Below are positions 991 through 14,673 of a stretch of 64,000 nucleotides of DNA, piece by piece. Under the pieces are notes generated by a model, which made no database searches, had not been told where the DNA came from, and saw only the letters and a list, made by a program, of their open reading frames with translations. The position numbers and the translations under genes are program-made. The DNA comes from a phage, in the NCBI GenBank assembly GCA_014913405.1, contig GCA_014913405.1_3931.1; one strand, written 5' to 3'. Each line of letters begins with the position of its first letter. Positions within the stretch are counted from its first letter, which is position 1.

Positions 991-992
991 AT

Positions 993-1020: not shown

Positions 1021-1051
1021 TGTTGTCACGATAAACTAAACAGGAGAACCA

Positions 1052-1600
1052 ATGAAGAAATTGATTCTAGGCTTGTGCTTAATGTTTACAGCACACTTAT
1101 CTTATGCAGTTGACTGCCCAGAGCTATCAATTAGCCAAAAAGTTAACATGTTAAAAGCTTACCAGTATGGTGAGAATAATATGGGGAAAGGCTGGGGTAT
1201 TACTCTAGCAGCTATAGCCTTACAAGAGTCAGAGTTAGGTCTGAAGGTAGAGAATAAAAAGACCCACGACTATGGTATTTTCCAGAATCACTTGAAGACT
1301 GTTGTAAAGCGTAACAAAATTAGTCCTAATGTGGCTAAAAAGAAACTCTTAAAAGATTTTGACTATGCAGCAAAAGAGACACATAAAGAGCTTGAGTTTT
1401 GGACTAAGGTACATGGTCACCCGAAGTCAAAGAAGACTTTACAAAAAGTTTTAGCATCATATAATGCTGGGTATTCGTACAAAATCCCTAAAGCTAAGAA
1501 ATACTCTCAAGATGTCTATAACAATATGAAAGTTATCGCTCAATGTGAATTTGCAACAAACATTTCTAAGGTAAATCATGAAAAAATTAAGAAAGTCTGA
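1052..1600 (+). CDS. Secreted lytic transglycosylase (SLT domain), candidate endolysin or virion muralytic enzyme
   Basis: N-terminal signal peptide; E-S catalytic motif (ALQESELG), YGIFQ, SYNAGY motifs. Confidence 0.55.
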   Translation: MKKLILGLCLMFTAHLSYAVDCPELSISQKVNMLKAYQYGENNMGKGWGITLAAIALQESELGLKVENKKTHDYGIFQNHLKTVVKRNKISPNVAKKKLLKDFDYAAKETHKELEFWTKVHGHPKSKKTLQKVLASYNAGYSYKIPKAKKYSQDVYNNMKVIAQCEFATNISKVNHEKIKKV

Positions 1601-2273: not shown

Positions 2274-2749
2274 GAGAAAAACTTATGAACAATATCATTA
2301 CGGTAGCACTGGACGATACGGCAAACAAATCTGAAGTAGTTCGTAAAATGATTCAAGGTAACTTTGAAGGTAAAATTTTCCGTGCTGTTAATGTAAAAGC
2401 TGATGGCAGTATTCGTGAATACCGTGCATTGTTGAATGTTAAAAAGCACGTAAAAGGTGCTGGTTCAACGACTGCACACAAAGAAAACCTGATGACTATC
2501 TATGATATGGGTAAGGCTTCAGAGTTAGGTGCTGAAGGTATCGTTAAAGAAGGTGCTCCGTATCGCTCTTTCAATCTGGAAACTACTCTTATGCTTTCCT
2601 TTACGAGTGGTTCTAAAACAATCACTTATCTCTTTACTGATGCTGCAACGGTATCTGCTATTAAGGATAGCACTGTCAAAGCTGGCGTAGTTGCTGCTGC
2701 AAAAGCTTCTTCGATGGCTGCAAATATCCTTGCTAAAGTCCTCGGTTAA
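2270..2749 (+). CDS. Hypothetical protein
   Basis: ORF followed by strong terminator. Confidence 0.5.
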   Translation: MREKLMNNIITVALDDTANKSEVVRKMIQGNFEGKIFRAVNVKADGSIREYRALLNVKKHVKGAGSTTAHKENLMTIYDMGKASELGAEGIVKEGAPYRSFNLETTLMLSFTSGSKTITYLFTDAATVSAIKDSTVKAGVVAAAKASSMAANILAKVLG

Positions 2750-2759
2750 GGTTAAGATA

Positions 2760-2783
2760 CAGGCTCCTTCGGGAGCCTTTTTC
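2760..2783 (+). terminator. Rho-independent terminator
   Basis: GGCTCC-TTCG-GGAGCC hairpin plus T-run. Confidence 0.7.
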
Positions 2784-2801
2784 ATTTCAGGAGATTGTTA
2801 A

Positions 2802-3149
2802 ATGACATTTAAAGAGTTCTGTCAAGCTACTTTCATAATTGTTTTCTTAGTTGGGGCAGGTGTCTGGGGAGGATACTCTTACAGAGACTACCAAGTTGCT
2901 GAAGCTGAGTTAAGCAATGAGAAACTAATAAGTGTTGCTAAAGATGCTTATCAGGAAGGTTTAGCCACACTGAGCACCAATTACAAAAATGATTTGAAAG
3001 ATGTGCTTGCTAAGAATAAGCATACAAAAGAGGTACTAACATATGAAAAAACTAAGCCAGAGTTTTATAATGTTTGTGTTACTGATAATTATGTCAGGGT
3101 GTTCAACGAACAAAGTGAACAGTACATTCAAAAACTCCCAAGTAAGTGA
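2802..3149 (+). CDS. i-spanin-like protein (N-terminal TM helix, periplasmic helical region)
   Basis: TM segment FIIVFLVGAGVWGGY; overlaps downstream lipoprotein ORF in another frame. Confidence 0.4.
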   Translation: MTFKEFCQATFIIVFLVGAGVWGGYSYRDYQVAEAELSNEKLISVAKDAYQEGLATLSTNYKNDLKDVLAKNKHTKEVLTYEKTKPEFYNVCVTDNYVRVFNEQSEQYIQKLPSK

Positions 3150-3312
3150 GAGTGACAAGTACACTCAAGAAGAGTCAAGATTCACTGTCAAAGGTAATAC
3201 TGGTAGTGATGTGGCAGCAGCCCTTGAGTTTTATCGTGATGGTTTTTACCAGTGCACAATCAAAGCTAATAACCTTATTGATATGATTTTATTAGGAAAT
3301 AAACAGCAATGA
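3043..3312 (+). CDS. o-spanin-like outer-membrane lipoprotein
   Basis: Signal peptide with lipobox-like IMSGC; begins inside the 3' end of the preceding gene in +1 frame. Confidence 0.4.
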   Translation: MKKLSQSFIMFVLLIIMSGCSTNKVNSTFKNSQVSESDKYTQEESRFTVKGNTGSDVAAALEFYRDGFYQCTIKANNLIDMILLGNKQQ

Positions 3313-3578
3313 CAGAGAATGAAGATACTTTTTACGTAGAGGGTTACTTACTGTTACCACGACCAAAAGAAACTTATATGCGAATTGACTTCTTACCAAC
3401 CATTATGGATAATGTGATGTGTCATATCTTTATGCAAGGTGTCACAGCACAGCTTAAGCACGTTGGTAAAGAGTGCAAAATAAAGGTTGACACTCATCCA
3501 GAAATCAAAGAGAATCACTACACATGGTTCTTACCAGACTCTAAAGAAATCTTAGCAGTTCTCAAAACGAGGAAATGA
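3309..3578 (+). CDS. Hypothetical protein
   Basis: ORF, overlapping stop/start coupling. Confidence 0.45.
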   Translation: MTENEDTFYVEGYLLLPRPKETYMRIDFLPTIMDNVMCHIFMQGVTAQLKHVGKECKIKVDTHPEIKENHYTWFLPDSKEILAVLKTRK

Positions 3579-3889
3579 TTATGCAATTCCAGCCAACAAA
3601 TCGTGGATTTTCTTATGCAGAATTTAAAGATGCTAAAGGGGAAATTTGTACTTTACAAGAGAGTTCATCATATGAACCATGTATTTGGTTAGGTGCTAAA
3701 GAGGTCTCTGTTCAGTACCTAGATGGTGGCTGGAAAACACTTGATATCCCAGCATTAGTAGGCAAAGATTTTGTAGGTAACCAAAGAATGAAACTCAACC
3801 AAGAACAGGTGAAAGAGTTATTGCCATACCTTCAGTACTTTGCTGAAAATGGTGAATTACCAACAGAGGAACTTACAAATGCAGATTAA
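3575..3889 (+). CDS. Hypothetical protein
   Basis: ORF, translationally coupled. Confidence 0.45.
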   Translation: MIMQFQPTNRGFSYAEFKDAKGEICTLQESSSYEPCIWLGAKEVSVQYLDGGWKTLDIPALVGKDFVGNQRMKLNQEQVKELLPYLQYFAENGELPTEELTNAD

Positions 3890-4205
3890 TGGAAGAGACT
3901 TTGTAGCCGTTTACTACGAGAAAGATAAAGAAGTTGGCGTAGCACAAGTATCTTATGGTAATGGTAAGTGGTTGTATGGGACAATCGCAGTAGTCGGAAC
4001 AAGAAGTGATACAAAAACTTTTAAAGATTGTGTTGACCTTCTTGAAGAATCCATCCACAATCATTGGTGTCTGATATGGATGACTGACAACGAAGTGATA
4101 GAACGCTTCAAAAAGATTGGTATCAACATTGATAGTATTGAGCATGTTGATTTATATGAGCTAACTGAGAAGGTAAACTATGAAAGTAATACTAGCCAGA
4201 GATAA
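3840..4205 (+). CDS. Hypothetical protein
   Basis: ORF. Confidence 0.4.
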   Translation: MLKMVNYQQRNLQMQINGRDFVAVYYEKDKEVGVAQVSYGNGKWLYGTIAVVGTRSDTKTFKDCVDLLEESIHNHWCLIWMTDNEVIERFKKIGINIDSIEHVDLYELTEKVNYESNTSQR

Positions 4206-4413
4206 AAAGACACGTAAGATTGTAAGTTCAGCAGTATTCAAAGGGAGACATGAAGTCGTCCCGTTTACAGGAGAAGGTGTGTTAACTTACAAGAAGGTGA
4301 TGAAACGTGAGTGCAGTAACCATTTCCGTGACTTCTTCTCTGAACCATTAGGAGACTTTAAAAGTCGCTGTGGTAAAGGCATCATCACTCAAGAGGTAAT
4401 TATTCATGGCTGA
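4180..4413 (+). CDS. Hypothetical protein
   Basis: ORF. Confidence 0.35.
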   Translation: MKVILARDKKTRKIVSSAVFKGRHEVVPFTGEGVLTYKKVMKRECSNHFRDFFSEPLGDFKSRCGKGIITQEVIIHG

Positions 4414-4606
4414 CTTCTGCAAAGACTGTGCTATCGAAATGTTCGGACGTGATACAGGTGACTTAAAAGGTCTTATCACTGAAGATGACTTTAAAGCTGG
4501 CTATGCAATGCCAGTAATCTGTGAAGGTTGTGGATGTATCTGGGTAGACCATGAGGGGCAACGTGTAAAACCTTCAGAAGATAAAGAATCTTGGGAGAGA
4601 TGTTAA
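4406..4606 (+). CDS. Small Cys-rich (zinc-ribbon-like) protein
   Basis: CxxC...CxGC motifs. Confidence 0.4.
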   Translation: MADFCKDCAIEMFGRDTGDLKGLITEDDFKAGYAMPVICEGCGCIWVDHEGQRVKPSEDKESWERC

Positions 4607-5386
4607 ATGGGTATTGTAAAAGTTGTGAAAGGTAACTTACTAGCTGCCTTCAAAAACACAGACATTGAGTTAATTGCTCATGGTTGCAACTGCCGTAACC
4701 TCATGGGTGCTGGAATCGCTCAAAAAATTGCTAAGATTTTCCCAAAAGCTGAAGAAGCTGACCGGAAATTCCATAAAAAGTTTGGCTACAGCGCTCATGA
4801 TATCGGATACCAGATGATTGGTGAGGTGTCACATGCTCGAACGGAGTATGGTTACATTTTTAACCTATATACACAGTTGGATGTTGGGAAGTGTGCATCA
4901 TACCGATACTTAGTGGAGTCACTAGAAAAACTCCGTAAATTTTGCTGGATGCACAACATTCGTAAGATTGGTTTACCCATGATTGGTGCAGGTATCGGTG
5001 GTTTAGACGCACAAGCTGTGAAAAGCCTCATTAATAGCGTTATGTACAACGTTGATGTGTACCTATACGTCTATGATGAAGCAATGGCAACTGTAGTTAC
5101 CCCTAAGTATGCCACCTCAGCACCACAATTCTATGATGGTGTCGTGCTAAGTGACGGTAAGTCTAACCATGTTACCCTCTATCAGCTTGTTGATGGTAAG
5201 GTCGAGGCTAGTTACCCTCTGGTTAGTGAGATGGGTATGTGTAATAGTGAAATGTTCTCAATTGACCCGTTTGGTAGATACGAAGGGGTGTTCTTTGATA
5301 GCTACCCAGCAGCATACATCTACACAACAAATCAGGATGAAGTTCACTACTTGCTGTATTCTAAAAAGTTCAAATTCATAAACTAA
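4607..5386 (+). CDS. Macro-domain protein (ADP-ribose binding/hydrolase fold) with C-terminal extension
   Basis: GNLLAAF...IAHGCNCRNLMGAGIAQKI and IGLPMIGAGIGGL match macro-domain signature regions. Confidence 0.6.
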   Translation: MGIVKVVKGNLLAAFKNTDIELIAHGCNCRNLMGAGIAQKIAKIFPKAEEADRKFHKKFGYSAHDIGYQMIGEVSHARTEYGYIFNLYTQLDVGKCASYRYLVESLEKLRKFCWMHNIRKIGLPMIGAGIGGLDAQAVKSLINSVMYNVDVYLYVYDEAMATVVTPKYATSAPQFYDGVVLSDGKSNHVTLYQLVDGKVEASYPLVSEMGMCNSEMFSIDPFGRYEGVFFDSYPAAYIYTTNQDEVHYLLYSKKFKFIN

Positions 5387-5421
5387 TTAGTGCTTCACAG
5401 CACCTATAATTAATCTAAGAA

Positions 5422-5465
5422 GGCCGCCTAACCCATTGAAAAATTTAAGGTAAGGCAGCCTTTTT
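5422..5465 (+). terminator. Probable terminator after macro-domain gene
   Basis: GGCCGCC...GGCAGCC stem followed by T5. Confidence 0.4.
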
Positions 5466-5622
5466 CATTTTCAATTTGTGCAGGTAGCTGTATAGGTCTG
5501 CACAGGTGTCTCAAAAAATCTCATCGCCGGATAGAAAAATCATTTTCAAAACGTGCAGACTCCGCTCAGGTCGGGCAAGAAAAATCATTTTAGAATTGTG
5601 CAGGTAGGTTTTTATGGGGAGC

Positions 5623-5664
5623 CAGACCAACCCCTCTCCCCCTATTACTCCCCCTCTCCCCAAA
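5623..5664. repeat. C-rich direct repeat (CCCCTCTCCCC x2)
   Basis: Seen directly; unusual in AT-rich context. Confidence 0.8.
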
Positions 5665-5816
5665 AGTCAAGAGAAAAATTTGTAGCGGATTGAAAAATAA
5701 TTCTTGATTTGTGTTCTGTTTTGTGGTAGTCGTGTGCGCACGTTTCATTACAGTTTTTCCAAAAATATTTTTAAAATTTTTCTTGACTCTTTGAACGGGG
5801 TTATCTAGTATTTGCA

Positions 5817-5874
5817 TCAACGGGGAGGGAATGACCTTCCCCACTAAATAAAGTCCTAAACTGGAGATTCAAAA
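5817..5874 (+). repeat. Class A leader cassette (ACGGGGAGGGAATGACCTTCCCCACT hairpin + conserved RBS leader)
   Basis: Near-identical copies at 7376, 8239, 9463, 10940, 11267. Confidence 0.8.
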
Positions 5875-6258
5875 ATGGCATACCGTGCACCTAAATTCAT
5901 CAACAAAGACAACTTTCGCAACGCACTGGAGAAGTCACTTGATGAGAATTTTAAAGGTAACGTTATTGTTGTTCACTCATTTAATTTCAAGTATGATATC
6001 AATGGGAATAAAATCAACCATTACACGGCAACAATGCTAGATGGTACTCTTTCAAGTGAAAAAGCCATTTTACATGCACTTGCTGGACGTGGTAAAAACC
6101 TGATAAGATGCGATAAGAGACGTTATCAGGGTGGCGCATATGGTTACGATGATGCTGTTTATCATCTTGAAAATATGGGCTATCAAGTAGAAAAAGCTGG
6201 AGTGTCTCAAATAATTGGTAGTGATGGTTACGTAACTATCTTCAAAATTAACAAATAA
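5875..6258 (+). CDS. Small early-type protein, hypothetical
   Basis: Conserved leader with AGGAG-like SD before ATG. Confidence 0.6.
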   Translation: MAYRAPKFINKDNFRNALEKSLDENFKGNVIVVHSFNFKYDINGNKINHYTATMLDGTLSSEKAILHALAGRGKNLIRCDKRRYQGGAYGYDDAVYHLENMGYQVEKAGVSQIIGSDGYVTIFKINK

Positions 6259-6343
6259 AGTACTTTACAGGGGGCTTATAGTTCGATAAAGTAAGCCCCA
6301 GATAAAGAGCTTTACCACTAAATCCTAAATTGGAGATTCAAAA
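6258..6343 (+). repeat. Class B leader cassette (GGGGCTTA-loop-TAAGCCCC hairpin + conserved RBS leader)
   Basis: Copies at 6637, 7706, 8502, 9773; stems conserved, loops vary. Confidence 0.8.
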
Positions 6344-6634
6344 ATGGCTACTATCAAAAACGTTGTAATCCCTGTAAAAACTCGTGATGACGCTCGCATC
6401 ATGGCGAAAAAGTTAGGCGGGAAAGTGGTTGACAACGGAAAACAATCTGCTGTAAGATGGGGTGTGAAGGCTGATAAACAGTTGAAGTTAAAAAATTCAC
6501 CAATAAATCTTTTTACATGTGTAAACACTATCGGAAAGACAAATGTATACACGAAAAAGGCATATATTAGACGCGTAGCCTTAACATCTCCAATTCGTAC
6601 AATGAGAAGTCATGCAAAGCTGAAAATTAACTGA
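6344..6634 (+). CDS. Small early-type protein, hypothetical
   Basis: Conserved leader/RBS. Confidence 0.6.
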   Translation: MATIKNVVIPVKTRDDARIMAKKLGGKVVDNGKQSAVRWGVKADKQLKLKNSPINLFTCVNTIGKTNVYTKKAYIRRVALTSPIRTMRSHAKLKIN

Positions 6635-6636
6635 TA

Positions 6637-6722
6637 AAGTACTTTACAAGGGGCTTAAAAGTTGATACCTTAAGCCCCAGATAAAGAGCTTTACCACTAA
6701 ATCCTAAACTGGAGATTCAAAA
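6637..6722 (+). repeat. Class B leader cassette
   Basis: Hairpin GGGGCTTAAAAGTTGATACCTTAAGCCCC + conserved leader. Confidence 0.8.
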
Positions 6723-7019
6723 ATGAAATTATCAAATAAAGTTCGTGAAAATCTAAGCAAATTACTCAACAAAATTGATTTCATTGAAACATCAAGAAAT
6801 AGCCATGATGTTATGGAATGGTTACACGGCAAAATAAAAGGTCGTCGTGTAGTGATTTGCTTATGGAATAGTTGCAGGGAGTATAAAAAACCTGTATTGC
6901 AAGTCAATATCTATGATGATAATCTTAAAAGTCCTGTCAAATCTAAAAGCGATTTACTAGATTCTTATGAGATAACTGTAAATGGCAAAGTGTCACGTAA
7001 AGAGGAAGCACCATGTTAA
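6723..7019 (+). CDS. Small early-type protein, hypothetical
   Basis: Conserved leader/RBS. Confidence 0.6.
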   Translation: MKLSNKVRENLSKLLNKIDFIETSRNSHDVMEWLHGKIKGRRVVICLWNSCREYKKPVLQVNIYDDNLKSPVKSKSDLLDSYEITVNGKVSRKEEAPC

Positions 7020-7345
7020 TGACTGGTATCACTGCAATCATTGCCATTTTCGCGCTCTATAAGGCATATAAAGCCTATAATCTAGCAAATAAGGCAATCA
7101 CACAACAGGTTAGTAATAGCCTTGTAATGAGCTTTCTAGAGCGGTTGAGCGATGAACAATTAAAGCGGTTAGAAATGAGCTTCAGATTCAGGGCGAGAAC
7201 TTATCAAATCAGCGACATTTTCAAAGATGATTTTCAATTAGTCGATGATTATAATTCTCTGATAAATGCTTTAAATATTAGTGACTTAAAAGACTATCAT
7301 ACTGTAATTGTTCAAGAGTTGAGCAAACGAAAACAAAACTGTTGA
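7013..7345 (+). CDS. Small protein, hypothetical (coupled to upstream gene)
   Basis: ORF overlapping upstream stop. Confidence 0.5.
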   Translation: MLMTGITAIIAIFALYKAYKAYNLANKAITQQVSNSLVMSFLERLSDEQLKRLEMSFRFRARTYQISDIFKDDFQLVDDYNSLINALNISDLKDYHTVIVQELSKRKQNC

Positions 7346-7370
7346 CACTGATTTTTAGATAGATTAAATT
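7342..7370 (+). promoter_or_regulatory. Sigma70-like promoter (TTGACA-17-TAAATT)
   Basis: Identical element repeated at 8205-8233. Confidence 0.55.
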
Positions 7371-7375
7371 ACTCA

Positions 7376-7433
7376 TCAACGGGGAGCAATAATCTCCCCC
7401 ACTAAATAAAGTCCTTAAACTAGGAGATTCAAA
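7376..7433 (+). repeat. Class A leader cassette
   Basis: Variant hairpin GGGGAGCAATAATCTCCCCC with compensatory changes. Confidence 0.8.
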
Positions 7434-7706
7434 ATGTATACTACTAACAACGGTCGCACTTTAAATGTCACTCTACGTCACTATGTCGACGGTGTGATGC
7501 ACTTTGAGGATTTACAGGCTGAGCAACATATCTTAAATTGGCAAGTCGCAGGACTCCAAAAAACTGCTACCGGATACGGCAAAAAGATTCCAACTAGTTG
7601 GAAAGTATACTATGAAGGACGTTTGCGCAGAATTTATCAGGATGTATGTGGCAATAGCACATCAAGTTACATCATAGTAAAAGGTAAAAAACTGCATTTA
7701 GTATAA
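7434..7706 (+). CDS. Small early-type protein, hypothetical
   Basis: Conserved leader/RBS. Confidence 0.6.
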   Translation: MYTTNNGRTLNVTLRHYVDGVMHFEDLQAEQHILNWQVAGLQKTATGYGKKIPTSWKVYYEGRLRRIYQDVCGNSTSSYIIVKGKKLHLV

Positions 7707-7791
7707 AGTACTTTACAGGGGGCTTATTAGTCTGTACAGTAAGCCCCAGATAAAGAGCTTTACTACTCAATCCTAAATTGGAGATTCTAAA
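7706..7791 (+). repeat. Class B leader cassette
   Basis: Hairpin + conserved leader. Confidence 0.8.
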
Positions 7792-8196
7792 ATGGCTATT
7801 AATAATCGTGAGATGTCAATCTTAAAAGCACGTTTAACCGTTAATCGAATCAATGTTATTACATCATCAGCACCGGATGAAACATTGCACAACATTATCG
7901 GAAAGATTCAAAGCGTTATCTTAGACGTTGAAAACGTAAAAAACTCATTGGCTGACGTTGCAGCAGGTATCACGCTAGACGGTGCACAATATGAAATGGC
8001 CGACATGTTAGGCAAATCTAAGGTAATGAATAAAGAGCTTGATTTAAAAATGTTTAGATTTGCCGTGAAAGTGTGGCTATCTGTTGAGTATGATGCTAAT
8101 TTTGCAATCGCTGATTTCTTTGCCACTTGGTTACAACGTAATTTGGCAAATCATGACTTTCGTGACATCTGCGACGCAATTTATGCAGAACTCTAA
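7792..8196 (+). CDS. Small early-type protein, hypothetical
   Basis: Conserved leader/RBS. Confidence 0.6.
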   Translation: MAINNREMSILKARLTVNRINVITSSAPDETLHNIIGKIQSVILDVENVKNSLADVAAGITLDGAQYEMADMLGKSKVMNKELDLKMFRFAVKVWLSVEYDANFAIADFFATWLQRNLANHDFRDICDAIYAEL

Positions 8197-8204
8197 AAAT
8201 TTTA

Positions 8205-8233
8205 TTGACACTGATTTTTAGATAGATTAAATT
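8205..8233 (+). promoter_or_regulatory. Sigma70-like promoter (TTGACA-17-TAAATT)
   Basis: Duplicate of 7342-7370 element. Confidence 0.55.
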
Positions 8234-8238
8234 ACACA

Positions 8239-8297
8239 TCAACGGGGAGGGAATGACCTTCCCCACTAAGTAAAGTCCTTAAACTAGGAGATTCAAA
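8239..8297 (+). repeat. Class A leader cassette
   Basis: Hairpin + conserved leader. Confidence 0.8.
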
Positions 8298-8495
8298 ATG
8301 GCTATTATCAACGGTTTAACCATTGAAACCACGCACATCAAAGACATTAAAGTTGGTGATGTAGTTCTTTCCCACGGCGTAGAAAAAACAGTCACTGCAA
8401 AGGATATCAAAGATGATTCTTTCATGGGTAGAACTCTCTTCGGTGATTCTTATTGCTTAGGTTATCTTGCAGTTTTAAAAGTTGTCAAAAATTAA
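8298..8495 (+). CDS. Small early-type protein, hypothetical
   Basis: Conserved leader/RBS. Confidence 0.55.
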   Translation: MAIINGLTIETTHIKDIKVGDVVLSHGVEKTVTAKDIKDDSFMGRTLFGDSYCLGYLAVLKVVKN

Positions 8496-8501
8496 CTGAT
8501 A

Positions 8502-8588
8502 AAGTACTTTACAAGGGGCTTATAGTTCGATAAAGTAAGCCCCAGATAAAGAGCTTTACCACTAAATCCTTAAACTAGGAGATTCAAA
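8502..8588 (+). repeat. Class B leader cassette
   Basis: Hairpin + conserved leader. Confidence 0.8.
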
Positions 8589-9131
8589 ATGAAATGCTTT
8601 CACGGTACTACTCAAGAAAACTTTATCAACCTGATTAATAACGGTGATAAACCATCAGGTGTATGGAATTGTTCGGATATGGACGGCAATTTTTACGTGT
8701 ACCCAGAAAATAAACTCTATGGTGATGATGAGGAAGAGATAGCATCGGAAGGTATCCAGCAAGCTCTAGGAAATGCCACTATCACGGCAGCTTTTCAGAT
8801 GAAAACTCAAAATATTGTTATCTTAGAACTTGACATTCCAGAGGATGAGCTGAATGATGATTATTCTTGTGATAACATGTCAAATATAGCAAGCTTTACA
8901 GAGTACTTTGATGTAAATTGGATTAAAAAGGTCTATACAACAGAGTTCAACGCTATGTATTCACCTTTTTGTCTCCCTTCACTGGATAACCCAAATTTAA
9001 ATTATCTTGATGAAACATTGGAGCTACTTGCTAAAAGTATCCAACAATCCGACAGTATTCAGGTTTTTTGTGACATCATGGATACACTGACAGAAAACAT
9101 TGTAGAGAGTGATTTAAAGGTCTTTTTCTAA
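8589..9131 (+). CDS. Strongly acidic small protein (D/E-rich), hypothetical; DNA-mimic candidate
   Basis: Conserved leader; roughly 35 D/E versus about 9 K/R by eye. Confidence 0.6.
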   Translation: MKCFHGTTQENFINLINNGDKPSGVWNCSDMDGNFYVYPENKLYGDDEEEIASEGIQQALGNATITAAFQMKTQNIVILELDIPEDELNDDYSCDNMSNIASFTEYFDVNWIKKVYTTEFNAMYSPFCLPSLDNPNLNYLDETLELLAKSIQQSDSIQVFCDIMDTLTENIVESDLKVFF

Positions 9132-9197
9132 AAACCTATACATTCACCTTATAAACACTGATTAACCCCTTACAGGGGCTTTTAGAGGGCTTAAATC

Positions 9198-9431
9198 ATG
9201 CTTACAACCATTTATCTCATCCTTTCCATTTGTAACGGCCATTCATGTGACTTTAAAGGGCTTGAAGAGTTTACAGGAAGTAAAGAAAATGCTATTCAAG
9301 TTTGCCAGATAGCAAGACAAGACTACCCCGCCAGTGATGATATACAATGTTACTTTAAGACAGAAGATGACGAAGGAATCTATTTCGACAGTGTCGATGG
9401 TCAATATGAAATTATCATTGAAAAAGACTAG
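9198..9431 (+). CDS. Small acidic protein, hypothetical
   Basis: ORF with RBS; D/E-rich. Confidence 0.5.
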   Translation: MLTTIYLILSICNGHSCDFKGLEEFTGSKENAIQVCQIARQDYPASDDIQCYFKTEDDEGIYFDSVDGQYEIIIEKD

Positions 9432-9462
9432 ACAAGCCTGATAAAAGTCTGTAAATTATCAA

Positions 9463-9524
9463 TCAACGGGGAGGGAATGACCTTCCCCACTAAGTAAAGT
9501 CCTTAAACTAGGAGATTCCAAAAA
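9463..9524 (+). repeat. Class A leader cassette
   Basis: Hairpin + conserved leader. Confidence 0.8.
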
Positions 9525-9773
9525 ATGTATACTAAAACTCAACTAAAAAACATGGTTAGCAATGGCTTAATGGATGAAGTCTATAAAGAGTGTAGACGCT
9601 ACGGGGAAATTAAGGATAAGACTAGTTATGAGTATACCCACACAATAGACTTTAAAACCAATGAGAAGAGGACTGACCTTGTTACTGTAGTAGTGATTGA
9701 GTATAAACGAATTATTTGGACCTTTGAGCTAGTAAAAGGTGAGTGCACAGAGATAGAATATAAAGACGCTTAA
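9525..9773 (+). CDS. Small early-type protein, hypothetical
   Basis: Conserved leader/RBS. Confidence 0.6.
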   Translation: MYTKTQLKNMVSNGLMDEVYKECRRYGEIKDKTSYEYTHTIDFKTNEKRTDLVTVVVIEYKRIIWTFELVKGECTEIEYKDA

Positions 9774-9858
9774 AGTACTTTACATGGGGCTTATTAGTCT
9801 GTATAGTAAGCCCCAGATAAAGAGCTTTACCACTCAATCCTAAACTGGAGATTCTAAA
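9773..9858 (+). repeat. Class B leader cassette
   Basis: Hairpin + conserved leader. Confidence 0.8.
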
Positions 9859-10200
9859 ATGGCTTATGTAACCGTAATTACCGATAAAGCTGGCTCATCT
9901 TGGTCAACTCAAGTAAGTGATAAGATGTCACCTATGCAGTGCCTAAAATACTTTGAACAGTGGAACAAAGGCGAGGGTGTAAGCCCCTTTCAAGTGATGC
10001 AAATCATCCATACAGATAACGAAGGGAATAAAACGACCTTGAACAGTGAATACTACGCAAGCCGTTTTGAAACGAGAAGTAAAACAATGAAGCTTTTACG
10101 TGAATCCGGCTATTCTCATATTGCCGCGCTAATCTGGGATGACCTGCTAAAAAGTCAGCGTATCAGCTATGTAAAGCCTGAAAAAATCTTTATAAGCTAA
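9859..10200 (+). CDS. Small early-type protein, hypothetical
   Basis: Conserved leader/RBS. Confidence 0.6.
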   Translation: MAYVTVITDKAGSSWSTQVSDKMSPMQCLKYFEQWNKGEGVSPFQVMQIIHTDNEGNKTTLNSEYYASRFETRSKTMKLLRESGYSHIAALIWDDLLKSQRISYVKPEKIFIS

Positions 10201-10236
10201 TCAATGACTTATAAAAAACTTTAAAAATTATCTTGA

Positions 10237-10262
10237 CAATACCCCTTGACATTGGTAACTTT
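10237..10262 (+). promoter_or_regulatory. Promoter-like element with tandem TTGACA hexamers
   Basis: TTGACAATACCCCTTGACATTGG; same tandem-hexamer architecture as 20701 and 63200. Confidence 0.4.
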
Positions 10263-10400
10263 GTTCGAGGGGGTTTATCTAAAAGGGATTCACTTAAAAG
10301 ATTCTTTATAGATAAGCTTAAAAAATTGCTTGCAATCATCTTCCAAAAACTTTATAGTTTATCTCAAGCAATAATGCTTTCCTAAACTGGAGATTCAAAA

Positions 10401-10931
10401 ATGAACAAGTTCAAAGCTATCAACTACATTCGCTCAAATAGTGTCATGTCTAAGCCTGTTAAGGATACCTACGAATTTCGTTGCAATGGGGTGCATTTTG
10501 CAACAATTACCAAATCAGAAAACGGGGCTTATTACATTCATCGCCGTAATGTTTCAACCGTGGTAGTCTCTCACTTTATGCAAGCTGTCGCGGAACTTCT
10601 CCCGCTGTTTTTAGGTCTTTACTTGGATGAGTGTAAAAACGTTCACAGCCACGTTAAAAACATTTTAAACAGTTATAAAATGGCTTATGAACGTTCTATT
10701 CATAATTTGAACAAGTTCTATAAAGCCCCTGAAAATACTGTGTCAATAGCTTATGATGTAAGCGGTGAAATGGTCAATCTCTCCAATGTAGAACAAATTG
10801 GCCTTTATGATTTACGTCCTAGCGGTTATTCTAAGACTCTCGGTGAAGGCTTATCCTTCAATATCAAGAACTTAGAAAAAATTTTAAGAGAAATTGAAAA
10901 AGATATTGACGAGACAATCAAAAATCTGTAA
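10401..10931 (+). CDS. Small early-type protein, hypothetical
   Basis: Conserved CCTAAACTGGAGATTCAAAA leader before ATG. Confidence 0.6.
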   Translation: MNKFKAINYIRSNSVMSKPVKDTYEFRCNGVHFATITKSENGAYYIHRRNVSTVVVSHFMQAVAELLPLFLGLYLDECKNVHSHVKNILNSYKMAYERSIHNLNKFYKAPENTVSIAYDVSGEMVNLSNVEQIGLYDLRPSGYSKTLGEGLSFNIKNLEKILREIEKDIDETIKNL

Positions 10932-10939
10932 ATTGTCAA

Positions 10940-10994
10940 TCAACGGGGGGGTAACCTGCCCCACTAAACAAAATCCTAAACTGGAGTTATCAAG
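10940..10994 (+). repeat. Class A leader cassette (variant hairpin GGGGGGGTAACCTGCCCC)
   Basis: Compensatory stem changes. Confidence 0.75.
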
Positions 10995-11258
10995 ATGGAA
11001 AACGTAGAATTAACCACACTATTGCAGATTGCAACTGACAAAGAAGACGTAGCGTTGTTTCACCGTATCGAAAGTGATTTGTTCAATGGTGAAATCATTA
11101 AAGAGTCTTACGAGGTTGTCGGATTCAAAGATGGTAAAGCATTTGGCTTTTTTGACCTCGACAAAAGCAAAGCGGTTACAATGTACGATGTTCTATCTTG
11201 TGAAATTCTGACAAAATACAACGAAAAAAGGCTTGCAACCTACGCCAATATGCAGTAA
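10995..11258 (+). CDS. Small early-type protein, hypothetical
   Basis: Conserved leader/RBS. Confidence 0.6.
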   Translation: MENVELTTLLQIATDKEDVALFHRIESDLFNGEIIKESYEVVGFKDGKAFGFFDLDKSKAVTMYDVLSCEILTKYNEKRLATYANMQ

Positions 11259-11266
11259 ATTACTAA

Positions 11267-11325
11267 TCAACGGGGAGGGAATGACCTTCCCACTAAACAA
11301 AGTCCTAAACTGGAGAATCTAAATT
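11267..11325 (+). repeat. Class A leader cassette
   Basis: Hairpin + conserved leader. Confidence 0.8.
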
Positions 11326-11574
11326 ATGTCAACTATCCGCGTAACTGTTAATGCTTATGGCTGCCACCAACTTGATGCAAAATTCGATATCGGTGGAACA
11401 GATAACACCTTTGACCTTATCAAAATGCTGATTCAGCAGGTGATACCAGATTATAACCCTACTGATGACTTCTGGAAAGATGCCGTAAAAGAAGCCATAA
11501 ACGAGGAATCTCACTACCATTATTGGGGTGACTTGATTGTCTCTCTGTACTACAGCAAACAAGGTTACAACTAA
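11326..11574 (+). CDS. Small early-type protein, hypothetical
   Basis: Conserved leader/RBS. Confidence 0.6.
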   Translation: MSTIRVTVNAYGCHQLDAKFDIGGTDNTFDLIKMLIQQVIPDYNPTDDFWKDAVKEAINEESHYHYWGDLIVSLYYSKQGYN

Positions 11575-11585
11575 TCGACGCAGCG

Positions 11586-11601
11586 GGGCTAAATAGCCCC
11601 A
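11586..11601 (+). terminator. Stem-loop (GGGGCTAAATAGCCCC) at end of plus-strand gene array
   Basis: Perfect 6-bp GC-rich stem; weak T-tail. Confidence 0.35.
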
Positions 11602-12059
11602 GATACCTTAAAAGCTCCTTCTCATAGGGGCTTTTTTACGTCTATAAAGAGACTCTATACAGTCCCTTTCCTTTCCTTCCTAGAATCTACCCCACTAATT
11701 CGATAGAGACTATCTCATACCTTAAAAAGCAATAACTCTATAGTCTACTCTATAACCTCTTATCAAATTAACTTAAATAAAAGCCCATAACCCGAAAGGG
11801 AAGGGCAACCACTAAAACGCTCTATAAAGCTCTATAACAGCCTTATCAACCTAACTTAAGCAATCATATTAACCCACTCTAAAAAGCCCTTTATAGAGCT
11901 TCCCAGAGCCTTAAAAGAATCTTATAAGGGTGTGAGCTTTATCATCTCGTTAGCTATCTTGTGAACTACTAAAAAGGGCTTGTTAGTGTCTTAAAAGTAT
12001 GTTATAGGGGCTATAAAGTTACTTCAAAGTTACGTAAAAGAGGCTATAAAGTTACGTAA

Positions 12060-13135
12060 ATGCTAGCCCCCTTAACATTTTCTTAACAATTTCTTAACAA
12101 TCCCTACATAGTTATGCTTTTAAGGCACTTGTTAGAGACTTGTTAGCCCCTTGTTAAATCTCTGTTAAGACCACGTAAAAGCCTTGTAAGAGTCTTTAGC
12201 ATAGCCTTTAAAGCCTCTGTAAAGCCCTATAAAGAGGTGTCTGTATAGTTGGGGTGTAATTACTAGGAAGAGACTTAAAAGAGCTTACAAGGAGCTATAG
12301 AGAGCTTTTAAGAGGGCTATTTAGAGAATCACTAAGAGGGAAAGGGAACGATAAGAAAAGAGATAGTGACCATGTTAATAGCTTGTTAAAAAGATTAAAC
12401 ACTTGTTAGGAACTTGTTAATTATCCCTACAAAATAACTCTTTAAAATTAACTTGTTAGCTCTCGTTAGTTATCTGTTAAGATTCTGTAAAGACTATTCA
12501 GCACTTGTTAGAAAACTGTTACAGCCTTGTTAGTTCTGTTAAGAATCTGTTAAGACTTTTGAAGAGTTGTTAAGAGCTTGAGAGAGTTGTTAAGAGATTG
12601 TTAAGGATATTTTAAAATTTTGCAAAGGGGATGTTACAGGGCTGTTAAGGGCTACCAAGCAGATATACATCTTCTACAGATATTTTTCAGTCCCTTCAAA
12701 GACCCTAAAAAATGACTTGATAGTCCTATTTTATAAAAATTTTAAAATTCTGAATAATTACCTAGACAGTCTTTTAAAAATACAGGTAGAAACAGGCTTA
12801 TAAGATACCTTGTTAGTACCGTGTTAGACCTTGTGAGATAAGGTCTGTAAAGATATTCCTGTTAAGTTTGTTAAAACAGTCTATATAGAGGCTTAGTAGT
12901 GCCTAGTGAACACCTATAGAGGGTAACATAGCTAACCTAGAGATTAAGAGGTGTATAGGAGCTTCTAAGAGGGTGTAGAGAGATGGTTAAGGTGATTGTA
13001 TAGGTTGTTAAGAAGGCTTGTTAGAAGAGTGTTTAGAAGGGCTATACAGAGGGGCTATTAAGACCACTAGATAGATACTAAGATACTATATAGTACTATA
13101 TAACTATATAGAGAGTAAGATTAAGAAGGTTGTTA
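12060..13135. repeat. Iteron-like array: about two dozen copies of (C/G)TTGTTA(A/G) and CTGTTAAG in an ORF-free region
   Basis: Counted by eye; irregular 8-40 bp spacing; no ORF over 60 aa spans it coherently. Confidence 0.75.
13083..13112. repeat. AT-rich tandem repeat (ACTATATA x3), candidate DNA-unwinding element
   Basis: Seen directly next to the iteron array. Confidence 0.5.
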
Positions 13136-13204
13136 AGAAGGGTAGATATTTTATTCACATATGATGGTGACCCAGCGGTTGGGACAACCGATAAATTTTA
13201 TAAA

Positions 13205-13232
13205 AATTAAAAAGCCCCCGATTAAGGAGGCT
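13205..13232 (-). terminator. Rho-independent terminator for the minus-strand block
   Basis: Minus-strand GCCTCC...GGGGGC hairpin followed by T-run. Confidence 0.5.
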
Positions 13233-13243
13233 CTTAAGATATT

Positions 13244-13867
13244 TTAAATCAGTGTTTCCAGAACTGTTTTCAATGATGACTTGGTTGTCTGATAAAAATG
13301 AGTAAATCCATTGTTATTATCGAATACCTGCATCATGATATCATCTCCCTTGATTGGGTACACTCGGATATCATAGTGAAAACCATTAAAGACACAAGAA
13401 CCACTACAGAATGCTCTAAAGTCATCTACTGAGATATACTCTTCATGACCTGTGATTTTTATACAAACGCCTTTACTCGGTCTCTTAGGGTTGATATCTT
13501 CCATCACAGACATACTCTGTCCACCAAGAGATACCATAGTGACCACTTTACGGTTCTTCTGTTTAAAGTACATCTTAACTTTCTGCAAAGTGTCTTCATA
13601 GAATGGATAAGACCTTTCTACAAAGATTCCTTCAAGTGGCTCTTTACCATTTTCAACTTCTCGGTTATGCCGTACTGCAAAGATAATTTGTTCGAACCAG
13701 TCAAGATTTTCTTCGGAGAGTGCTTCCCGAACATCCTTCCAGTCAAGTACTAAGTAGTTACCTTCAACTTCTTTTAAGTTATCTTTTTCCATATCTATCA
13801 CACCATTATCGTAAAACTTGATATTCTGGTACTGCGAATTTATTACTATTGTTCTTGATGAGGTCAT
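13244..13867 (-). CDS. Hypothetical protein (start may be an internal Met; overlaps upstream gene)
   Basis: ORF 207 aa. Confidence 0.5.
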   Translation of the reverse strand: MTSSRTIVINSQYQNIKFYDNGVIDMEKDNLKEVEGNYLVLDWKDVREALSEENLDWFEQIIFAVRHNREVENGKEPLEGIFVERSYPFYEDTLQKVKMYFKQKNRKVVTMVSLGGQSMSVMEDINPKRPSKGVCIKITGHEEYISVDDFRAFCSGSCVFNGFHYDIRVYPIKGDDIMMQVFDNNNGFTHFYQTTKSSLKTVLETLI

Positions 13868-14270
13868 CTTCTGAAACTAAAAATGTAATCCCACATAAGT
13901 GTCTGTAACGACTATCATACTCGAATATCTTAAACAGATATTTACCATCATGATAAACCTGTTGCACTTCACCTTCTGCAACAATCTCGCCTGTAATAAA
14001 ATTTTTTAGTTTATACACATTACCAACTTTAGGTACTGTTTTCATCTCAGGCTCTTTTAGTGCTACACCTATTTTTGCATCACCGAGTAAATGAGAACTC
14101 TCAAAAGCTACGTGTTTCATATAAGCTTCTGAGCATTCCCAAATAAAACAATGTACAAGAACCTTAGCAGCATGTCTTGAGCAGTTCAACTTATCACAAA
14201 TTTCTGTGTACATCTCATCTTTAGTAGAATTGTCAAGCATTGCTCTTTGCACTACTTCTTTAATTTTCAT
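13806..14270 (-). CDS. Hypothetical protein
   Basis: ORF 154 aa. Confidence 0.5.
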   Translation of the reverse strand: MKIKEVVQRAMLDNSTKDEMYTEICDKLNCSRHAAKVLVHCFIWECSEAYMKHVAFESSHLLGDAKIGVALKEPEMKTVPKVGNVYKLKNFITGEIVAEGEVQQVYHDGKYLFKIFEYDSRYRHLCGITFLVSEDDLIKNNSNKFAVPEYQVLR

Positions 14271-14673
14271 AAGCTCTCCGAATAACCCTATTAAGCATCT
14301 CTAAAGTCAGCTTTCCAGACTCTAAATGTGGCATAACAAGCTTTAAAGCTTTTTCAACATCATGCACAACATCTATTATACCTTCTTCATAGGCTTCTAC
14401 AAGGATATCTTTTACTTTTTGTGGTATTGCTAGACGCATATCAAACTCATTTGCTTGAGGGTGGTCACTACCATGCCAGTAACCATCTTTGTTAAAGCTG
14501 ATGTAGTCACCGTGGTAAAAGTGTACACCATTAGCTTTAAACTTCTCCAGCACAAGGCATTGAATTGGGTATTCAGTATTCCACTCCCTGACTCCTATAA
14601 CCTTCACTGTTGCGATGTACTCCTGTGTTTTTGCATCTACGATGTCAAGTTCTTGACCAGCTATGATTTGCAT
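14260..14673 (-). CDS. Hypothetical protein
   Basis: ORF 137 aa. Confidence 0.5.
   Translation of the reverse strand: MQIIAGQELDIVDAKTQEYIATVKVIGVREWNTEYPIQCLVLEKFKANGVHFYHGDYISFNKDGYWHGSDHPQANEFDMRLAIPQKVKDILVEAYEEGIIDVVHDVEKALKLVMPHLESGKLTLEMLNRVIRRAYEN

What the first reader, a model, noticed from the sequence alone, without database searches (positions are those of the whole stretch)
11575..13243. 1.6 kb ORF-free region dense with TTGTTA(A/G) iterons plus an AT-rich tandem repeat
Convergent plus- and minus-strand gene blocks end at this region. It contains about two dozen copies (counted by eye) of (C/G)TTGTTA(A/G) or CTGTTAAG, plus other short recurring motifs (CTTATAAG, GGCTATAAAGTTACGTAAA x2, TTCTTAACAAT x2) and an ACTATATA x3 tract at 13083-13112. 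Iterons next to an AT-rich unwinding element are the classic signature of a replication origin. Alternatives are a binding-site array for a phage transcription factor or a packaging site.
Basis: seen in the sequence. Interest (0 to 1): 0.65.

Follow-up and report, generated by a model that had tools for sequence, protein, structure and literature searches.

The report
Phage genome end with repeat arrays
The ORF-free 1.6 kb stretch is where the two ends of a Felix O1-like phage chromosome meet: a ~590 bp direct terminal repeat packed with phased TGTTAAG motifs and flanked by other short-repeat arrays, so it is most likely a DNA cutting and packaging region, not a replication origin.

Summary
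Region 11575-13243 has no ORF of 36 aa or more.

The window is a Felixounavirus (Felix O1-like myovirus). In relatives whose ends were mapped from sequencing reads (Pr103Blw, D4 and others), the 581 bp direct terminal repeat (DTR) maps exactly onto window 12066-12656. At least ten GenBank records start or stop at those two positions. The region is therefore a concatemer junction: right-end non-coding flank, DTR, then left-end non-coding flank, closed off by terminators on both sides.

- 18 of the 26 TGTTAR copies lie inside the DTR.
- The whole 1.6 kb has an ~11.2 bp periodicity.
- DTR indels longer than 1 bp are 11 or 23 bp.
- The region is at least as conserved as the neighbouring genes.
- Motif bases are more conserved than spacers, and they persist in Erwinia phages where little else aligns.
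- T7's junction has the same kind of oriented short-repeat arrays.

Best reading: cis-acting terminus recognition, cleavage and packaging DNA. The protein that binds it is not identified. An origin is not excluded, because the two most easily melted 40-mers of the window lie here, but it has no specific support.

The parts
11585..11635 (+). Two stem-loops, the second followed by U6: intrinsic terminator closing the + strand gene block
   Evidence: RNA fold -27.2 kcal/mol, z = -4.0. Relatives annotate terminators at the homologous place.
11575..12065 (+). Right-end unique non-coding flank. It lies next to the right-hand DTR copy in virion DNA and is made of ~11 bp units ending in AG (CTCTATAAAG, CCTTAAAAG, CTATAAAG types).
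   Evidence: WAG periodicity of 11.2 bp, power 0.58 against shuffle maxima of 0.15 +/- 0.04. Mean conservation 0.82 over 14 phages. CTCTATA and CTMTAWAR counts.
12019..12060 (.). AAAGTTACGTAAA repeats (palindromic core TTACGTAA) ending 6 bp before the left DTR boundary. Candidate boundary recognition element.
   Evidence: GTTACGTAAA x2. GT(T/A)ACGTAAA(T/A)G(C/T)TA|GCC(C/A)CC is conserved in 14/14 phages of three genera.
12066..12656 (+). Direct terminal repeat (DTR), present once in this collapsed assembly. By homology it is present at both ends of virion DNA.
   Evidence: The 581 bp DTRs of Pr103Blw (annotated as such) and D4 (exact duplicate at both record ends) align to 12066-12656. Further records start or end exactly there. 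PhageTerm DTR results are published in PMC8303462 and PMC11737134.
12072..12101 (-). Three inverted copies of the motif (TTAACA, TTAACAA, TTAACAA) at the left edge of the DTR. They mirror TTGTTAAG..TTGTTAAGG at 12587-12606.
   Evidence: Inverted repeats I3/I8, 86-90% complementary. Minus-strand TGTTAR hits. heid carries one extra 11 bp unit here.
12128..12649 (+). Array of 18 same-strand TGTTAR sites. Extended consensus is purine-rich, then CTTGTTAAG. Spacings are mostly 11, 20-22 or 9 bp.
   Evidence: Positions and spacings. Motif bases 0.973 conserved against 0.856 for other DTR bases, p = 4e-9. The TGTTAA copies in the conserved right-hand part of the DTR (7 runs) are invariant in the alignment with Erwinia phages.
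12643..12669 (+). Right DTR boundary and its flank: TGTTAAGGGCTACC|AAGCAGATATACA. Candidate terminase cleavage site.
   Evidence: AGGGCTACCAAGCAGATATACA is invariant in 14/14 phages. AAG(C/T)AGATATACA is kept in Kolesnikvirus.
12657..13243 (+). Left-end unique non-coding flank, the most conserved part of the region. It holds more TGTTAR copies, TATAGAG-type units and AT-rich tracts.
   Evidence: Mean conservation 0.90. Seven TGTTAR copies. Periodicity of 11.7 bp, weaker than elsewhere.
12720..12759 (.). AT-rich tract (88% AT), the second least stable 40-mer of the window
   Evidence: Nearest-neighbour scan. The core TATTTTATAAAAATTT is conserved.
13071..13112 (.). Three copies of ACTATATA (two contain the full palindrome CTATATAG; a further CTATATAG lies at 12881).
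   Evidence: Conserved in three genera with variable copy number, and replaced by CTTCTCAG repeats in the Erwinia phage.
13210..13235 (-). Intrinsic terminator closing the - strand gene block
   Evidence: Pattern scan. Fold -14.9 kcal/mol, z = -2.9. Annotated in the KhF2, wV8 and Maleficent records.

Best explanation
The region is the joined-ends (concatemer junction) form of the physical termini of a Felix O1-like phage genome. Window 12066-12656 is the ~590 bp direct terminal repeat. 11575-12065 is the non-coding DNA just inside the right genome end, and 12657-13243 is the non-coding DNA just inside the left end. Intrinsic terminators on both sides keep gene transcription out.

Shown by homology: the position of the DTR and its conserved boundaries.

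Inferred:
1. During replication, genomes are joined through the DTR.
2. The terminase recognises the junction and cuts at the two conserved boundaries, (T/A)G(C/T)TA|GCCCCC on the left and GGGCTACC|AAGCAGATATACA on the right. The repeat is duplicated so that each packaged genome carries it at both ends.
3. The same-strand TGTTAAG sites are spaced about one helical turn apart, and they gain and lose whole 11 bp units. They would be a one-face binding platform for an oligomeric protein of that machinery, either a still unrecognised small terminase subunit or another end-binding protein. That protein would wrap or coat the DNA, set the direction of packaging and position the cuts.
4. The flanking arrays, whose motifs differ between lineages, extend this platform or shape the DNA.
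For: Location of the DTR:
- The window is a Felixounavirus: 257 phage records match at 60-95% identity.
- Pr103Blw annotates a 'short direct terminal repeat region' at 1-581 and 87841-88421, and the two copies are identical. D4 has an exact 581 bp duplicate at its ends. Both map to window 12066-12656.
- Other records begin or end exactly there: ZX4221, I14.1, H12, pEP20, SPJ41, GE_vB_7A and the Mooglevirus KMM2. ECOH1 and NJ12 begin or end within about 10 bp.
- PhageTerm DTR calls are published (PMC8303462: 581 bp; PMC11737134).

Boundaries:
- Both boundaries are conserved in 14/14 phages of three genera: the right one is invariant, the left one has only minor substitutions. The right boundary motif persists in Erwinia Kolesnikvirus.
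- The vEam_PM_27 record starts at the homologous left boundary, preceded by an adapter remnant.

Selection on the motif:
- Motif bases are 0.973 conserved against 0.856 for other DTR bases.
- The TGTTAA copies in the alignable right end of the DTR are invariant at subfamily depth, while the spacers vary.

Phase constraint:
- Periodicity of 11.2-11.3 bp.
- DTR indels longer than 1 bp are only 11 bp (x4) or 23 bp (x2).
- DTR lengths in relatives cluster at about 559, 570, 580, 591, 602 and 613 bp.

Other:
- The whole non-coding region is as conserved as, or more conserved than, the flanking genes: 0.82, 0.88 and 0.90 against 0.76-0.84.
- T7's junction shows the same architecture: CYTAAAG 16 on +, 0 on -, with a 13 bp period, inside and beside its 160 bp repeat.
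- Terminators bound the region, promoters are not enriched in it, and there is no Rfam hit.
Against: - The termini of this particular phage were not measured. The DTR is inferred from relatives at 89-93% identity.
- No protein is linked to the motif. No small terminase is recognisable: the 66 aa ORF upstream of TerL has no family annotation. The genes next to the region have no Pfam domain.
- 8 of the 26 TGTTAR copies lie outside the DTR, and the flanks (about 1.1 kb) are more DNA than any characterised terminase site needs.
- The two most easily melted segments of the window lie in the left-end flank. A packaging role does not explain that.
- By my own knowledge, the function of the analogous T7 arrays has never been established, so the analogy does not prove a packaging role.
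Confidence: 0.6

Rival explanations
1. Replication origin. The TGTTAAG repeats are iterons for an initiator. The nearby AT-rich tracts (12720-12759 and 13071-13112) are the unwinding element. Replication starts next to the genome end, possibly in addition to the terminus function.
For: - Dense oriented direct repeats.
- The two least stable 40-mers of the 64 kb window lie 60-450 bp from the array.
- One TTATTCACA DnaA-box match at 13151.
- Strong conservation of the AT-rich tracts.
Against: - The array coincides with the DTR and its conserved cut sites.
- No initiator-like gene is adjacent, and no Pfam domain is found in the flanking genes.
- The DnaA box is lost in heid, REP9, P219, SUSP1 and the Moogleviruses, and is absent in phiEa21-4. 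One match is what chance gives (6 in 64 kb).
- The CTATATAG tract is replaced by unrelated repeats in the Erwinia phage, while TGTTAAG is kept.
- GC skew turns only where gene orientation turns.
- T7 has analogous arrays that are not its primary origin (plus my own knowledge).
Confidence: 0.15
2. Binding platform for a non-terminase protein, phage or host, that coats the genome ends. Possible roles are end protection from RecBCD, pairing of the two ends or of sister DTRs, or control of DNA ejection and entry. Comparable cases are the repeat-rich untranslated region and injection-stop signal of T5, and the p6 nucleoprotein complex at phi29 ends.
For: - Base-specific conservation of about 25 phased sites over more than 1 kb. 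That is far more than a cleavage site needs.
- An 11 bp phase is typical of cooperative one-face binding.
- The array is unique to the termini within the window.
- The T5 terminal repeat also holds a large untranslated region dense with repeats that has been given an ejection-control role (bioRxiv 10.1101/866236, abstract).
Against: - No candidate protein was found.
- The only clear small DNA-binding protein in the window is an XRE-type HTH (54862-55188, - strand). That type normally binds inverted rather than direct repeats, and nothing links it to this motif.
- The Felix-like DTR is short (0.6 kb) and carries no genes, unlike T5's 10 kb repeat. There are no DnaA-box arrays like those reported for T5.
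Confidence: 0.2
3. No specific protein site. The 11 bp periodic sequence is structural DNA (intrinsic curvature or superhelical writhe that helps the first or last packaged segment), or simply the product of replication slippage in a transcription-free zone.
For: - Periodicity extends over the whole 1.6 kb, including parts with different motifs.
- Unit-sized indels show slippage-type turnover.
- Flank motifs differ between genera.
Against: - The exact hexamer TGTTAA is held invariant while the spacers change, even between Felixounavirus and Erwinia phages.
- Strict strand orientation, 24 against 2.
- Conservation exceeds that of the neighbouring coding genes. Neutral slippage products would not show this.
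Confidence: 0.05

Closest known systems
Phage T7 concatemer junction: a 160 bp terminal repeat with arrays of short repeats beside and inside it (SRL/SRR of Dunn & Studier 1983; the names are from my own knowledge, the sequence was checked here)
   Same: A short gene-free DTR. A strictly strand-oriented short motif ending in TAAAG/AAG (CYTAAAG 16 on +, 0 on -) lies inside and next to the repeat, with regular spacing and significant periodicity. Some units are nearly identical to those of the Felix-like right-end flank (CTTAAAG and CTTAAAAG against CTTAAAAG and CTATAAAG).
   Different: - T7's period is 13 bp, not 11 bp.
- T7's junction is about 0.7 kb and contains promoters (A0, phiOL, phiOR). 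Here the region is 1.67 kb, terminator-bounded, and has no convincing promoter.
- The main DTR motif here, TGTTAAG, is different.
- The phages are unrelated: a podovirus with its own RNA polymerase against a myovirus with a Terminase_6-type TerL.
Phage T5 left terminal repeat: a large untranslated region with repeats and the injection stop signal (Davison, bioRxiv 10.1101/866236)
   Same: A kilobase-scale non-coding stretch dense with direct and inverted repeats, associated with a terminal repeat and conserved across a whole phage group.
   Different: T5's repeat is about 10 kb and carries pre-early genes. Its hallmark, according to that paper's abstract, is a series of 8 DnaA boxes. Here there is a single unconserved DnaA-box match, and no two-step transfer is known.
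Plasmid R1 parC/ParR centromere: ten 11 bp direct iterons bound cooperatively by a ribbon-helix-helix protein (my own knowledge)
   Same: Same-orientation sites at 11 bp spacing, in runs of 4-5, which implies cooperative binding along one face of the helix.
   Different: This is a partition system on a plasmid, with the binding-protein gene adjacent and a promoter between the iteron blocks. None of that is seen here.
Terminase recognition sites of lambda (cosB R sites) and SPP1 (pacL/pacR repeated boxes on bent DNA) (my own knowledge)
   Same: Several short repeated boxes close to the cleavage site, phased with the helix, that load a small-terminase oligomer and set the packaging direction.
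   Different: Those sites have 2-4 boxes within about 100-200 bp and a known TerS. Here there are about 25 boxes over more than 1 kb, no TerS is identified, and the ends are a DTR rather than cohesive or headful ends.
Iteron-type replication origins (lambda ori, P1 oriR, and the pSC101, F and R6K plasmids) (my own knowledge)
   Same: A cluster of direct repeats next to an easily melted AT-rich tract.
   Different: Iterons are typically 17-22 bp and number 3-7. They are bound by an initiator encoded next to or around them, often together with DnaA boxes. None of these features is found here.

Membership tests
Direct terminal repeat / concatemer junction of a DTR-packaging tailed phage | The same sequence is present at both ends of virion DNA | tested here: met
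   By homology only. The identical 581 bp copies at both ends of the Pr103Blw and D4 records align to 12066-12656. SPJ41, GE_vB_7A and KMM2 also carry it twice.
Direct terminal repeat / concatemer junction of a DTR-packaging tailed phage | Fixed, sequence-specific termini (sharp read-start peaks and about 2x coverage of the repeat) in this phage itself | not testable with these tools
   No reads are available for the window's phage. PhageTerm results exist for relatives (PMC8303462, PMC11737134).
Direct terminal repeat / concatemer junction of a DTR-packaging tailed phage | Conserved boundary sequences at the two cut sites | tested here: met
   Both boundaries are conserved in 14/14 phages of three genera: the right one is invariant, the left one has minor substitutions. 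The right one is kept in Kolesnikvirus.
T7-type short oriented repeat arrays at the terminal repeat | A strand-oriented short motif, regularly spaced, inside and beside the DTR | tested here: met
   Here: 24 on + against 2 on -, period 11.2 bp. T7: 16 on + against 0 on -, period 13.3 bp. The motif and period differ, so this is a resemblance in architecture and not sequence homology.
Terminase (TerS) recognition site (pac/cosB type) | Sequence-specific binding by the phage's small terminase subunit | not testable with these tools
   No TerS is recognisable. The 66 aa ORF 28318-28518 upstream of TerL belongs to PHROG 4397 (unknown function), has no Pfam hit and is unnamed in public records.
Iteron-type replication origin | Iterons bound by an initiator protein encoded at or next to the origin | tested here: not met
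   The flanking genes (10401-11574 on +, 13244-14673 on -) have no Pfam domain and fall in PHROGs of unknown function. The units are 11 bp.
Iteron-type replication origin | An adjacent AT-rich DNA unwinding element | tested here: met
   13071-13110 and 12720-12759 are the two least stable 40-mers of the window.
Iteron-type replication origin | Conserved DnaA boxes or another host-initiator site | tested here: not met
   There is a single TTWTNCACA match at 13151. It is mutated in 6 of the 13 relatives aligned and absent from the phiEa21-4 region.
Iteron-type replication origin | Replication initiates there | not testable with these tools
   This needs marker-frequency or nascent-strand data.
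T5-type injection stop region | Lies within a long gene-bearing terminal repeat and has an ordered series of DnaA boxes | tested here: not met
   The DTR is 0.59 kb and gene-free. There is no DnaA-box series.
Structured non-coding RNA locus | A match to a known RNA family, or promoter-driven transcription of the region | tested here: not met
   No Rfam match better than E = 0.29. Nine promoter-like sites against 5.9 +/- 2.3 in shuffles, all weak. Terminators face inward from both gene blocks.

The most novel reading that the evidence does not exclude
The 1.6 kb terminus region may be a 'phage telomere'. In this reading a dedicated, still unidentified protein conserved across Ounavirinae polymerises along the ~11 bp phased TGTTAAG sites and the flanking arrays at both genome ends. 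The resulting nucleoprotein structure would do more than guide cutting: it could protect the ends, pair the two DTR copies for concatemer formation, or gate DNA entry. T7's long-unexplained short-repeat arrays would then be a second, convergent example of the same principle.
Probability: 0.15. Interest if true: 0.7.

Novelty: new member of a known kind. Interest (0 to 1): 0.4.

Why it matters
- **Annotation.** Felix O1-like phages are widely used for Salmonella and E. coli typing, biocontrol and therapy. Most of the 250-plus public genomes I matched are opened arbitrarily and leave this 1.6 kb blank. Placing the DTR at a defined, conserved position (GCCCCCTTAACA... to ...GTTAAGGGCTACC) lets these records be oriented and annotated consistently.
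- **Engineering.** The position tells engineers which DNA must be kept for packaging.
- **Biology.** The region is more conserved than its neighbouring genes. It carries a phase-locked motif array that persists across the subfamily and mirrors the unexplained arrays at T7's ends. That makes an old question testable in a second system: what short oriented repeats at DTR termini do, and which protein reads them.

Tried and rejected
1. **T5-like terminal repeat (first guess).** Rejected: BLAST shows a Felixounavirus.
2. **Literature.** The Felix O1 and wV8 genome papers, a Felixounavirus comparison paper and the PhageMaP (Bas63) paper do not describe this region or its motifs. Other searches returned nothing relevant.
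3. **EF202P1 and the FSL SP-010/012 contigs start about 300 bp left of the region.** I suspected a physical end there, but EF202P1 has no terminal duplication, and the PhageTerm-based records place the ends elsewhere.
4. **Non-coding RNA or promoters.** No Rfam hit and no promoter enrichment.
5. **DnaA-dependent origin.** The single box is not conserved.
7. **Scan of IMG/VR for four TGTTA copies at 11 bp spacing.** The CTTGTTAAGAA arrays that looked similar lie in giant-virus contigs, next to an NCLDV capsid gene, eIF4E and asparagine synthase, and are irrelevant.
8. **A common cut-site sequence at the two DTR boundaries.** There are only loose resemblances: GCCCCC against GCTACC as the first and last hexamers, GCCACT at both in the Erwinia phage if the boundary is homologous, and an imperfect inverted TAGCCC..TTAACA. 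I make no firm claim. The right end of the Erwinia record also appears truncated by about 26 bp relative to the conserved boundary.
Full report
**1. Observation**

Window 11575-13243 has no ORF of 36 aa or more (two chance ORFs of 35 and 31 aa). It lies between a + strand gene block ending at 11574 and a - strand block ending at 13244.

First-order Markov simulations of the region's own composition gave 0.30 +/- 0.54. YTGTTAR occurs 24 times on + and 2 times on -, against a background of 0.55 per kb per strand. No comparable cluster exists elsewhere in the 64 kb.

The minor motifs are mostly as described. The exact 19-mer GGCTATAAAGTTACGTAAA, however, occurs once rather than twice.

- The whole 1.6 kb is built of ~11 bp units ending in AG. 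WAG periodicity is 11.2-11.3 bp, with power 0.56 against shuffle maxima of 0.20 +/- 0.05, and coding controls show nothing similar.
- Three inverted copies of the motif sit at 12072-12101.

**2. What the window is**

The region matches 257 phage records, essentially all of them Felix O1-like myoviruses (Felixounavirus, with Mooglevirus and Suspvirus at lower identity). The best matches are 90-93% identical over the full length. Public annotations leave the region blank or mark only 'repeat_region' and terminators. The Felix O1 and wV8 genome papers do not discuss it. The Felix O1 paper only infers 'short terminal repeats' from the genome size.

**3. The key result: the motif cluster is the direct terminal repeat**

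- The Pr103Blw paper reports PhageTerm-defined DTRs of 581 bp (PMC8303462). The paper on D4, H12 and I14.1 reports DTRs from PhageTerm (PMC11737134).
- The Pr103Blw record annotates a 'short direct terminal repeat region' at 1-581 and 87841-88421.
- Its two copies are identical, and D4 has an exact 581 bp duplicate at its ends. Both align to window 12066-12656, and their unique flanks continue into 11213-12065 and 12657-13337.
- More independent records start or stop exactly at those two positions: ZX4221, I14.1, H12, pEP20, SPJ41, GE_vB_7A and the Mooglevirus KMM2, several of them with two copies. ECOH1 and NJ12 do so within about 10 bp.

In the window, which is a collapsed assembly opened elsewhere, the repeat appears once. 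So 11575-13243 is the junction of the two genome ends:
- right-end non-coding flank, 11575-12065;
- DTR, 12066-12656;
- left-end non-coding flank, 12657-13243.

Eighteen of the 26 + strand TGTTAR copies are in the DTR, one is in the right-end flank and seven are in the left-end flank.

**4. Anatomy**

*Terminators.* Intrinsic terminators close both gene blocks at the edges: 11585-11635 on + (z = -4.0) and 13235-13210 on - (z = -2.9). Sigma-70-like sites are not enriched inside (9 against 5.9 +/- 2.3, all weak), and no Rfam family matches. The region therefore looks transcriptionally insulated.

*Boundaries.* Both DTR boundaries are conserved in all 14 phages compared, from three genera; the right one is invariant and the left one varies at only a few positions:
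- left: GT(T/A)ACGTAAA(T/A)G(C/T)TA|GCC(C/A)CCTT(A/T)ACATT, preceded by palindromic TTACGTAA repeats;
- right: TGTT(A/T)AGGGCTACC|AAGCAGATATACA.

*Layout of the DTR.* It begins with three inverted motif copies and ends with direct copies, so both virion ends read GCCC..TTAACA inward.

*Spacing.* Inside the DTR the sites are spaced 11, 11, 11 ... 11, 20, 11 ... 22, 9, 11, 20, 20, 11 bp. The extended consensus is purine-rich, followed by CTTGTTAAG.

**5. Selection**

Over 14 phages, the fraction of positions identical to the window is as follows:

| Segment | Conservation |
|---|---|
| Right-end flank (11575-12065) | 0.82 |
| DTR (12066-12656) | 0.88 |
| Left-end flank (12657-13243) | 0.90 |
| Flanking ORFs | 0.76-0.84 |

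- Within the DTR, motif bases are 0.973 conserved against 0.856 for the rest (Mann-Whitney p = 4e-9).
- In Erwinia phages (Kolesnikvirus), only the right end of the DTR still aligns. There the TGTTAA copies and the boundary motif AAG(C/T)AGATATACA are invariant while the spacers differ.
- That phage's DTR is also full of (C)TGTTAA(G) sites, but its flanks use other repeats (TTCTAAG, CTTCTCAG).
- Indels longer than 1 bp in the DTR are only 11 bp (four) or 23 bp (two). One example is an extra TTCTTAACAAA unit in heid.
- DTR-homologous lengths across relatives cluster at about 559, 570, 580, 591, 602 and 613 bp.

Both the hexamer and the helical phase are therefore under constraint.

**6. Mechanism**

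*Shown, by homology:* this is the DTR-bearing terminus of a phage with fixed ends.

*Established general knowledge (mine):* DTR phages replicate into concatemers joined through the repeat. The terminase cuts at specific sites at the repeat boundaries, and the repeat is duplicated so that each virion carries it at both ends.

*Inferred:* the conserved boundaries are the cut sites. The oriented, phase-locked TGTTAAG array is a one-face binding platform for an oligomeric component of this machinery, either a small terminase or another end-binding protein.

I could not identify that protein:
- TerL (28525-30141) is Terminase_6-type, with the portal gene downstream.
- The 66 aa ORF upstream of TerL has no annotation anywhere.
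- The genes next to the region have no Pfam domain.
Nothing ties it to direct repeats at the termini.

**7. Rival: replication origin**

*For.* The two least stable 40-mers of the entire window are 13071-13110 (the ACTATATA/CTATATAG tract) and 12720-12759, both in the left-end flank. One DnaA-box match lies at 13151.

*Against.*
- The box is mutated in six of the 13 relatives aligned and absent in the Erwinia phage. One match is also what chance gives.
- No initiator gene is nearby.
- The CTATATAG tract is lineage-specific, whereas TGTTAAG is not.
- GC skew turns only where gene orientation turns.

I keep the origin reading as a possible additional function at about 0.15.

**8. Comparison with known systems**

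I fetched T7's ends and rebuilt its junction. The 160 bp repeat and its flanks carry CYTAAAG 16 times on + and never on -, mostly 13 bp apart, with a significant 13.3 bp periodicity.

That is the same architecture, and some units are nearly the same as in the Felix-like right-end flank (CTTAAAG, CTTAAAAG). The differences are the 11 bp period, the larger size (1.67 kb against about 0.7 kb), the absence of promoters, and a different main motif.

T5's terminal repeat also holds a large untranslated repeat region (bioRxiv 10.1101/866236). It is defined by DnaA-box arrays, which are not found here.

The 11 bp same-face spacing recalls R1 parC/ParR and terminase boxes of the SPP1 or lambda type (my own knowledge). 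Those are functional analogies, not membership.

**9. Novelty and verdict**

That this stretch is the terminal repeat is already implicit in a few GenBank records and genome announcements.

In the papers I could search, I found no description of the following:
- the motif array itself;
- its 11 bp quantised evolution;
- its conservation above that of the neighbouring genes;
- its persistence across Ounavirinae;
- the parallel with T7.

It is a new, larger member of a known kind of element (DTR junction with oriented short-repeat arrays). The molecular role of such arrays is still open.

Interest is moderate at 0.4. The preferred interpretation (origin) is not supported, and the listed alternative (packaging site) is.

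Noticed in passing
window 63220-63400: The divergent intergenic region between the - strand block ending at 63168 and the + strand gene at 63396 is the least stable 100-mer of the window (81% AT). It has clusters of CTTAAAAG and CTNTAAAG motifs. It is a more conventional place for early promoters or an origin.
   Followed up: no
window 20640-20830: A second divergent switch region, between the - block and the + block, also has a CTTAAAAG cluster (three in 300 bp, on both strands) and an AT-rich 100-mer among the twelve least stable non-overlapping ones.
   Followed up: no
window 960-10300 (intergenic gaps of the + strand early block): Eight of the 21 + strand copies of CTTAAAAG in the window lie in this block. 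Felix O1 and wV8 annotate 39-57 bp direct repeats between these small genes, which contain GGGGCTTAAAAGTCTGTAAAG..CCCC hairpins. The same short words as in the terminus flanks therefore recur at intergenic terminator- or promoter-like elements.
   Followed up: partly
L011 (Erwinia phage vEam_PM_27, PP079184.1) 1-8: The record begins with TCCGATCT, which looks like the tail of an Illumina adapter, directly before the conserved left DTR boundary GCCACTTTTACA. Its right end stops about 26 bp short of the conserved right-boundary motif.
   Followed up: partly
GU169904.1 (Staphylococcus phage SA1) 135884-136463: A 147 kb 'Staphylococcus' phage record contains a Felix O1-like DTR region at 88.6% identity. 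This suggests a chimeric or contaminated assembly.
   Followed up: no
L028, L044, L132, L142 (IMG/VR contigs): Perfect tandem arrays of CTTGTTAAGAA (5-6 copies) followed by AT-rich DNA occur in intergenic regions of giant-virus contigs, next to an NCLDV major capsid gene, eIF4E and asparagine synthase. They have the same 11-mer as the Felix-like consensus but have no BLAST similarity to the window, so the resemblance looks coincidental.
   Followed up: partly
window 13244-13867 (- strand) and homologues: The first gene inside the left genome end varies in length between relatives (182, 197, 201 and 207 aa in one 90% cluster; 183-221 aa in annotated records) and has no known domain.
   Followed up: no
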